A DNA stretch of 64,000 nt, from the NCBI RefSeq assembly GCF_006345805.1, contig NC_043014.1:24428001-24492000 (forward strand). Direction: 5' to 3'. Shown in pieces: positions 55,500-56,612 of this stretch. Source of the stretch: Octopus sinensis (lineage: Eukaryota). Position numbers and translations under genes: made by a program. The notes beneath the pieces are model-generated. The model was not told where the DNA came from. It did no database searches and worked only from the letters and a program-made list of their open reading frames with translations. Every line of letters starts with the position of its first letter. Position 1 is the stretch's first letter.

Positions 55500-56612
55500 T
55501 GGTGTCCGTATGCATTCGATCCTTCTTCCAGGAAATCTACGCTCCCAGCTTAGTTTTTCTAATGCTCGTTGCTTAGTTTTTCTTGGAGGGCTGGCCGTGA
55601 TCTAGTAATCTCAAGATTAATCAGCCGAAATTACTACGATGATCCGGTTCTTGACTGAAGACTGAGGGTTTCGAATGTCCTGTCCGTGTTTATTGTATCG
55701 TCTTCTTGAGTTATACGTTCTTGTCCATGTTGTATTTTTCTACATACCTTAACATATATTCCAGGCGCCACGTACCCTCTTAACATTAATGTGAGCACAT
55801 ATTCTTAATAACTGGTACGACTCTTTGTTTGTCTCTCTCTCTCTCACTTTTACTTGATCTGTCCCCTTCTCTCTCTACTCATCCTCTTTTTCTCTTCTCT
55901 TTCCTCTGATTCTTTGGTCTAATCTTCCACTACCCTCCTATTTCTTTGTCTCGCTCTGCACTCACAGGTCGCTCTTCGACACCCATCCCTTCTCCTCTCT
56001 GATTCCTTCTTTCTCTCTCTTCTCTCTCTTTGTTGCGTTTGTCCCTCCTCTCTCTCTCTCCTCTCTCTCTCTCTTCCGTTGCTTCTCTTTCTTTTCTTTT
56101 CTCTTCTCTCTTCTCTGTCACGTGACTGCTGGCCGAAATCTGCCTTTCAGCTTCTGACCAGCGTCGTGTTAACATCGTTGTTTTTCGTCCGCCGCTATAG
56201 GCATCGCCGATAAGGCTCCTTTCCTTGCGCCAGAGAAAAAATTTGTTTGCTTGTTATCAGTCGTAAGACACTTGTTGTTGTTTTCACCGTTAATGCTTCT
56301 GTATTTCATGTTTCTGTATTCCATTATTTTTTTGTTTTTTTATATTCGTCCCTTTTGCTGTCCTGGTGTCCGTATGCATTCGATCCTTCTTCCAGGAAAT
56401 CTACGCTCCCAGCTTAGTTTTTCTAATGCTCGTTGCTTAGTTTTTCTTGGAGGGCTGGCCGTGATCTAGTAATCTCAAGATTAATCAGCCGAAATTACTA
56501 CGATGATCCGGTTCTTGACTGAAGACTGAGGGTTTCGAATGTCCTGTCCGTGTTTATTGTATCGTCTTCTTGAGTTATACGTTCTTGTCCATGTTGTATT
56601 TTTCTACATACC

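What the first reader, a model, noticed from the sequence alone, without database searches (positions are those of the whole stretch)
55603..55668. Candidate hammerhead ribozyme with a non-canonical (pseudoknotted or dimer-dependent) strand order
Seen: all three hammerhead junction strands are present with matching complementarity. S1 is TAGTAAT-C-TCAAGA (55603-55616; AUC triplet, site after 55610). S3 is TCAG-cc-GAA-ATTACTA (55621-55636). S2 is TCTTGA-CTGAAGA-CTGA (55649-55665). Stem III (TAGTAAT/ATTACTA, 7 bp, extendable by GATC/GATC and CCG/CGG), stem I (TCAAGA/TCTTGA, 6 bp) and stem II (CTGA/TCAG, 4 bp) each begin at their hammerhead position, apart from a 2-nt CC insertion before GAAA. 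Established: types I/II/III are the three circular permutations of S1-S2-S3. The order here, S1-S3-S2, is none of them, so standard descriptors would miss it. Inference: it folds either as a pseudoknot (4-nt TTAA joining the distal ends of stems I and II) or, if stem III is fully extended, S2 must come from the second repeat (56467-56532), so only tandem transcripts would cleave. Some PLE clades are reported to lack canonical hammerheads, and this might be a substitute. The CC bulge is the weak point.
Basis: partly seen in the sequence, partly recalled or inferred. Interest (0 to 1): 0.9.

Follow-up and report, generated by a model that had tools for sequence, protein, structure and literature searches.

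The report
Split-core hammerhead ribozyme in Penelope retroelements
A mobile repeat present thousands of times in this animal genome carries a predicted self-cutting hammerhead RNA in a strand order I could not find described, and many inserted copies begin exactly at the predicted cut, so it likely cuts in living cells, although cutting has not been tested in the tube.

Summary
The hammerhead blocks are real and lie in S-G-C order, the non-circular 'type SGC' of Eckert 2023. The strand before GAAA pairs with an upstream strand (55589-94), not with the bases after CUGAAGA. A search blind to stem II found this in 15 of 15 distinct cases (this window plus 14 from Naiad-type elements in metagenomes) and an attached stem II in 0 of 15. 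The fold is therefore the SGC ring opened inside the core, between A9 and 10.1, which Eckert assumed cannot be split. It fits in 73 nt; the second repeat is not needed. The host is a non-autonomous Penelope-like repeat (4,880 motif copies). Copy 5' ends pile up at the cut: 104 in 7 nt against 19 in 31 nt upstream, and 51 of 60 listed start on the predicted base. The fold occurs in 16 of 80 Naiad-type loci, a clade reported to lack canonical hammerheads. Cleavage is untested and the mobilising element was not found. Earlier scan notes mention rearranged hammerheads in such elements of other genomes.

The parts
55589..55594 (+). 5' strand of stem II (G10.1 first), detached from CUGANGA; pairs with 55621-55626
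55595..55602 (+). one strand of the fourth helix P4 (equivalent of the stem I-II interaction helix of type SGC); pairs with 55641-55647, one bulged base
   Evidence: compensatory variants seen
55603..55610 (+). stem III strand, U16.1 (55609) and C17 (55610); predicted cut after 55610
   Evidence: 5' junction peak
55611..55616 (+). stem I strand; first bases of the predicted 3' product
55621..55636 (+). 3' strand of stem II (55621-26), GAAA (55627-30), stem III strand (55630-36); preceded by a 4-nt linker 55617-20
55641..55647 (+). second strand of P4
55649..55661 (+). stem I strand (55649-54) and CUGAAGA core (55655-61); the ribozyme ends at A9
56453..56525 (+). second, identical copy of the ribozyme; predicted cut after 56474, about 142 nt from the element's 3' end
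55500..56616 (+). non-coding Penelope-like insertion: 864-bp unit plus a 5'-truncated partial unit, fixed 3' end, between (TA)n tracts

Best explanation
This is likely an active self-cleaving hammerhead ribozyme near the 3' end of a non-autonomous Penelope-like retroelement, predicted to fold from one 73-nt stretch in the order stem II strand - P4 strand - cut site - GAAA - P4 strand - CUGANGA, that is, the type-SGC ring opened between A9 and G10.1. Shown: the strands, their covariation across Naiad-type families, and the pile-up of genomic 5' ends at the predicted cut. Inferred: transcripts are cut after 55610/56474; a Penelope-type reverse transcriptase supplied in trans starts about 140 nt downstream of the cut and runs off the new 5' end, leaving 125-150-bp insertions in (TA)n; most templates are uncut or re-joined, which gives the longer and tandem copies. 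The ribozyme was probably inherited from a Naiad.
For: Stem-II-blind search: upstream partner of at least 5 bp in 15 of 15 distinct hits (6 bp in 13), attached partner of at least 4 bp in 0 of 15, downstream control of at least 5 bp in 2 of 15; no hit on the minus strands or in the ORF/5' parts of the 80 loci. G10.1-C11.1 in 16 of 16 compared; stem II 80 of 80 cells paired with varied pair types, partner-swap mean 50.5, max 67 in 10,000. The fold is in 16 of 80 Naiad-type loci, always sense strand and 3' of the ORF, in 10 RT clusters below 70% identity, and in a second family of this genome. 5' junctions on the minus strand: 104 in 55605-11 vs 19 in 55575-605; 153 in 55597-627 vs 8 in 55628-58. 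51 of 60 listed places lack C17 and start at 55611 (hand count). 20 of 20 further such copies fetched are short, from several subfamilies. SGC and CSG forms cleave in vitro (PMC10085705); PLE reverse transcription starts internally (PMC11167929).
Against: No cleavage assay; no hammerhead with a broken A9-10.1 link was found in my literature searches. Stems I and III were required by the descriptor, so their pair counts are circular, and stem II was required in the set. P4 and stem III are joined at both far ends by short links (0 and 4 nt here), a geometry that Eckert already found hard to fit. Only 104 of 2,368 minus-strand motif copies show the junction. In the young subfamily 13 of 14 listed junctions lie 2-16 nt past the cut, not on it. 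The second family gave no clear peak (about 2 at the cut, 4 past it, 3 before it, of 9). 62 of 80 Naiad-type loci lack the fold, many with long 3' sequence. No autonomous partner sharing this 3' end was found. In one Poseidon element no RNA ends were seen at the hammerhead site.
Confidence: 0.82

Rival explanations
1. Same split wiring, but active only as a strand-swapped dimer of two copies or with help from the element's protein, because one chain cannot close the II-III-P4 loop.
For: Short links at both far ends of P4 and stem III; minimal PLE hammerheads act as dimers; one Poseidon hammerhead needs its protein; most copies are uncut.
Against: All strands lie within 73 nt; stem III is long, not the short palindrome of dimer-type PLE hammerheads; in the hits displayed the two links always add up to at least 3 nt.
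Confidence: 0.08
2. A plain type-SGC ribozyme whose stem II strand follows CUGAAGA, either directly (first reader, CC bulge) or after a 5-nt spacer (GGYU with AGCC).
For: In the window both downstream registers can pair 4 bp; the +5 register is fully paired in 16 of 29 older copies.
Confidence: 0.05
3. The fold is a hammerhead-derived protein-binding or packaging signal that no longer cuts; the 5' ends at 55611 mark a transcription start or a reverse-transcriptase stop helped by microhomology with (TA)n.
For: The peak has a 16-nt shoulder over an AT-rich stretch; 55611 begins a TCA word resembling an initiator (own knowledge); no in vitro data.
Against: All catalytic positions are kept while position 7 varies; the edge falls on the base predicted from structure; only 2 of 60 junctions have a G before it, so no cap signature; equally AT-rich neighbours give few junctions; once the downstream strands are copied no helix remains to stop the enzyme there (inference).
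Confidence: 0.05

Closest known systems
Type-SGC hammerhead ribozymes (HRIMA-1 and variants; Eckert, Friedrich, Weinberg, Weinberg 2023, PMC10085705)
   Same: Block order S-G-C, short linker from stem I to stem II, fourth helix joining the far ends of stems I and II, full core.
   Different: In SGC the stem II strand and its P4 strand follow CUGAnGA; here they precede the cut site, so the chain ends at A9. SGC was found in metatranscriptomes and in no genome of a known organism; this is in an animal genome and in retroelements.
Type-CSG hammerheads (same paper, two sequences from metagenomes)
   Same: Same ring of strands opened elsewhere; found here in 2 of 80 Naiad-type loci and, by eye, in nematode Naiad consensus sequences.
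   Different: Block C is intact; the window's ribozyme is not of this type.
Type I and minimal hammerheads in PLE pseudo-LTRs and non-LTR retrozymes (PMC4209133; bioRxiv 10.64898/2026.07.22.740005)
   Same: Position near the element's 3' end, non-coding tandem units, G10.1-C11.1.
   Different: Those are circular permutations with a short stem III, often dimer-dependent; this has two pseudoknotted stems, a long stem III and P4.
'HHR_core' and 'HHR_half_core' notes on Naiads (Craig et al. 2021, PMC8557442)
   Same: They saw core words that fit no descriptor, some with the second half 35-50 nt away, Naiad_Ovul among them.
   Different: No structure was proposed; the paper states that Naiads lack canonical hammerheads.

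Membership tests
Hammerhead ribozyme | CUGANGA, GAAA and NUH core | tested here: met
Hammerhead ribozyme | Stems I, II, III starting at core positions, with covariation | tested here: met
   a compensatory stem I change in L068 and L087
Hammerhead ribozyme | Self-cleavage after NUH | not testable with these tools
   indirect only: genomic 5' ends
Types I/II/III (Rfam hammerheads) | Circularly permuted, unknotted order; Rfam score | tested here: not met
   order is S-G-C; no hammerhead match up to E 10 in 50000-64000; no Rfam match at gathering score in 40 of the 80 Naiad-type loci
Type SGC | Order S, G, C | tested here: met
Type SGC | Helix joining the far ends of stems I and II | tested here: met
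   P4 in the window and all 16 split-form loci (the score rewards it)
Type SGC | Block C intact: stem II strand directly after CUGAnGA | tested here: not met
   0 of 15
Non-autonomous Penelope-like element / non-LTR retrozyme | Fixed 3' end, variable 5' truncation, partial tandems, (TA)n targets, no ORF | tested here: met
Non-LTR retrozyme (as defined in the 2026 preprint) | Type I hammerhead in each unit | tested here: not met
   the ribozyme is not type I
Naiad clade | ORF with N-terminal GIY-YIG and C-terminal RT, or a 3' end shared with one | tested here: inconclusive
   the window's element has no ORF; no Naiad remnant among the loci held shares its 3' end; the link rests on the shared fold and target

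The most novel reading that the evidence does not exclude
Naiad retroelements across animal phyla do carry hammerheads, in non-circular permutations: type CSG in nematodes and some others, and in many others a form outside the six-order scheme in which the catalytic core is opened between A9 and stem II. [quoted passage not shown]
Probability: 0.72. Interest if true: 0.88.

Novelty: new variant of a known kind. Interest (0 to 1): 0.82.

Why it matters
It would add a wiring that the published six-permutation scheme excludes by assumption, move non-circularly permuted hammerheads from environmental RNA into animal genomes, explain why Naiads seemed to lack hammerheads, and give base-level genomic evidence that a Penelope-element ribozyme cuts the retrotransposition template, a function described as unclear in PMC8557442. 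A 73-80-nt RNA makes it directly testable.

Tried and rejected
Rfam: no hammerhead in the window region. Nested folding gives no unusual stability (z 0.33 to 0.72), as expected for a pseudoknot. No RNA holder listed; contigs laid cannot show RNA ends and were not used as evidence. Viral contigs held no Naiad relative. The neighbouring PLE remnants at 47331-49254 and 51566-52015 carry no ribozyme hit and were not linked to this element. Two protein searches of this genome (both flagged as floors) found Naiad remnants, many tied to the second ribozyme family, and an apparently young canonical PLE, none sharing the element's 3' end. A relaxed-core scan of 49 hit-less loci with at least 300 nt of 3' sequence found nothing above background. 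The tree is the quick one, not the finished search. The MAFFT alignment misplaces the upstream strand, so pairs were counted in a script. The promoter scan is bacterial and uninformative.

Full report
Observation. A three-block descriptor finds only these two in the window and no SGC-order hit in 60 shuffled windows. Rfam reports no hammerhead here.

The order is known. Eckert et al. 2023 (PMC10085705; main text parts 1-6 of 8 read; supplement searched and one part read) define blocks S, G and C, name the order S-G-C type SGC, show that it cleaves, and assume that CUGAnGA cannot be separated from its stem II strand. They found it in metatranscriptomes and in no genome of a known organism.

The element. 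The repeat is abundant in G000: 4,880 exact matches to a 21-mer. Copies share a fixed 3' end in (TA)n, vary at the 5' end and form partial tandems of up to four repeats without a real ORF. This is the pattern of a non-autonomous Penelope-like element and makes + the RNA strand (inference from target-primed reverse transcription). The genome appears to be an octopus (protein label; a second family matches published cephalopod Naiads).

In older subfamilies (30 of 69 places fetched) the four bases after CUGANGA drift, while an upstream GGCUG stays complementary to the bases before GAAA: fully paired in 7 of 29 versus 19 of 29 scorable copies; a third register 5 nt after A9 pairs in 16 of 29 (two of the 29 are truncated within the upstream strand). 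The revised fold is stem II 55589-94/55621-26, P4 55595-602/55641-47, stem III 55603-09/55630-36 and stem I 55611-16/55649-54, ending at A9. P4 corresponds to the interaction helix of type SGC. The layout is the SGC ring opened between A9 and G10.1.

It is a family. Craig et al. 2021 (PMC8557442; passages; supplement metadata and motif searches) report that Naiads lack canonical hammerheads but note unexplained core words. Reading those listings by eye, not by computation, I saw the split layout in the Acropora and Octopus consensus sequences and several others, and type CSG in three Nippostrongylus families and others; the listings were partial (60 of 62, 10 of 25, 10 of 43 and 10 of 23 places). 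To test this on held DNA I built a Naiad alignment and fetched 80 loci from metagenomes (the best 80 of 511 confirmed). The split form scored 57-69 in 16 of 80 and CSG in 2 of 80, all on the sense strand 3' of the ORF; nothing scored above 45 on 278 kb of minus strand or 202 kb of ORF and 5' sequence. With stem II left out of the search, 15 of 15 distinct hits (the window and 14 loci; two duplicates dropped) had an upstream partner of at least 5 bp, 0 of 15 an attached one, and 2 of 15 a partner in the downstream control. In 16 examples G10.1-C11.1 was invariant and other positions used several pair types. The 16 loci fall in 10 RT clusters below 70% identity, on both main branches of a quick tree. 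The fold is not universal: 62 of 80 lack it, some because contigs end early, but one branch of 31 has none and a relaxed scan added nothing.

Footprint of cleavage. If the RNA is cut after 55610, reverse transcription should run off at 55611. Counting minus-strand places where (TA)4 directly precedes the element: 104 within 55605-11 against 19 within 55575-605, both anchors shared across subfamilies; 153 within 55597-627 against 8 within 55628-58, both anchors specific to the young subfamily. Of the 60 places listed, 51 begin at 55611 without C17, 9 keep it, and 2 have a G before it (hand count; the first T can be shared with the TA tract, so the start is good to one base). All 14 places listed are at or past the cut, 13 of them 2-16 nt past it, which I attribute to microhomology trimming (inference). 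Twenty further cut-start copies (20 of the first 24 listed; two already held and two that keep upstream bases left out) are all 125-150 bp long and 72-97% identical to the window; L015 and L016 start at or next to the cut and run a full unit further. Only 104 of 2,368 minus-strand copies show this junction, so most templates were uncut or re-joined. The older second family gave 9 junctions with no clear peak.

Mechanism. Shown: structure by covariation, position, 5'-end peak. Inferred: cleavage, internal priming about 140 nt downstream as in a Poseidon element (PMC11167929, passages), and supply of enzyme in trans by a partner I could not identify. The A9-10.1 link is known to take an extra base (PMC4209133, passages; HRIMA-1 alignment), which makes a break there plausible. 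The AUC triplet is rare in nature but catalytically good (PMC1636495, passages). The open structural question is how P4 and stem III are both closed by short links.

Novelty. Searches for 'type-SGC' (1 paper), 'non-circular permutations', Naiad with hammerhead, permutation with Penelope since 2021 and octopus showed no description of this layout or of permuted hammerheads in Naiads; most hits were seen as listings only, the 2026 retrozyme preprint in part (its supplements are closed), and subscription papers are not covered. Earlier notes of this scan mention rearranged hammerheads in Penelope-like elements and a core-opened hammerhead in phages; I could not see their details. Verdict: a new variant of the hammerhead class with strong comparative and genomic support, awaiting a cleavage assay.

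Noticed in passing
L217:3447-3560, L259:2907-2995: Type-CSG hammerheads in the 3' region of Naiad-type ORFs; the published type rests on two sequences of unknown context.
   Followed up: partly
L097-L116 (G000, 319 places): A second, older family in this genome, matching published Naiad_Obim/Ovul, carries the same split fold with different stem sequences.
   Followed up: yes
L323:2767-2805, L324: An apparently young canonical PLE with long open frames has, by eye, a minimal type I hammerhead near its 3' end with U at position 6 of the core (CUGUUGA).
   Followed up: no
window 56129-56139 and L323:2620-2630 region upstream of its hammerhead: An 11-nt word (TGGCCGAAATC) and a pyrimidine-rich tract are shared between the window's unit and that canonical PLE; possibly a promoter word or a hint to the driver.
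   Followed up: no
window 46780-49361: Frameshifted PLE (RT then C-terminal GIY-YIG) flanked by a 569-bp inverted repeat at 98% identity; a second PLE remnant with inverted repeats at 50766-52487.
   Followed up: partly
L213, L219, L221, L226-L230 and relatives: A branch of 31 Naiad-like RTs has no hammerhead in any order and no Rfam hit among those scanned, even with more than 2 kb of 3' sequence; candidates for another ribozyme class.
   Followed up: partly
window 46250-46612: Six copies of a 25-nt motif at 62-86-nt spacing, also seen in L031; looks like another common repeat family.
   Followed up: no
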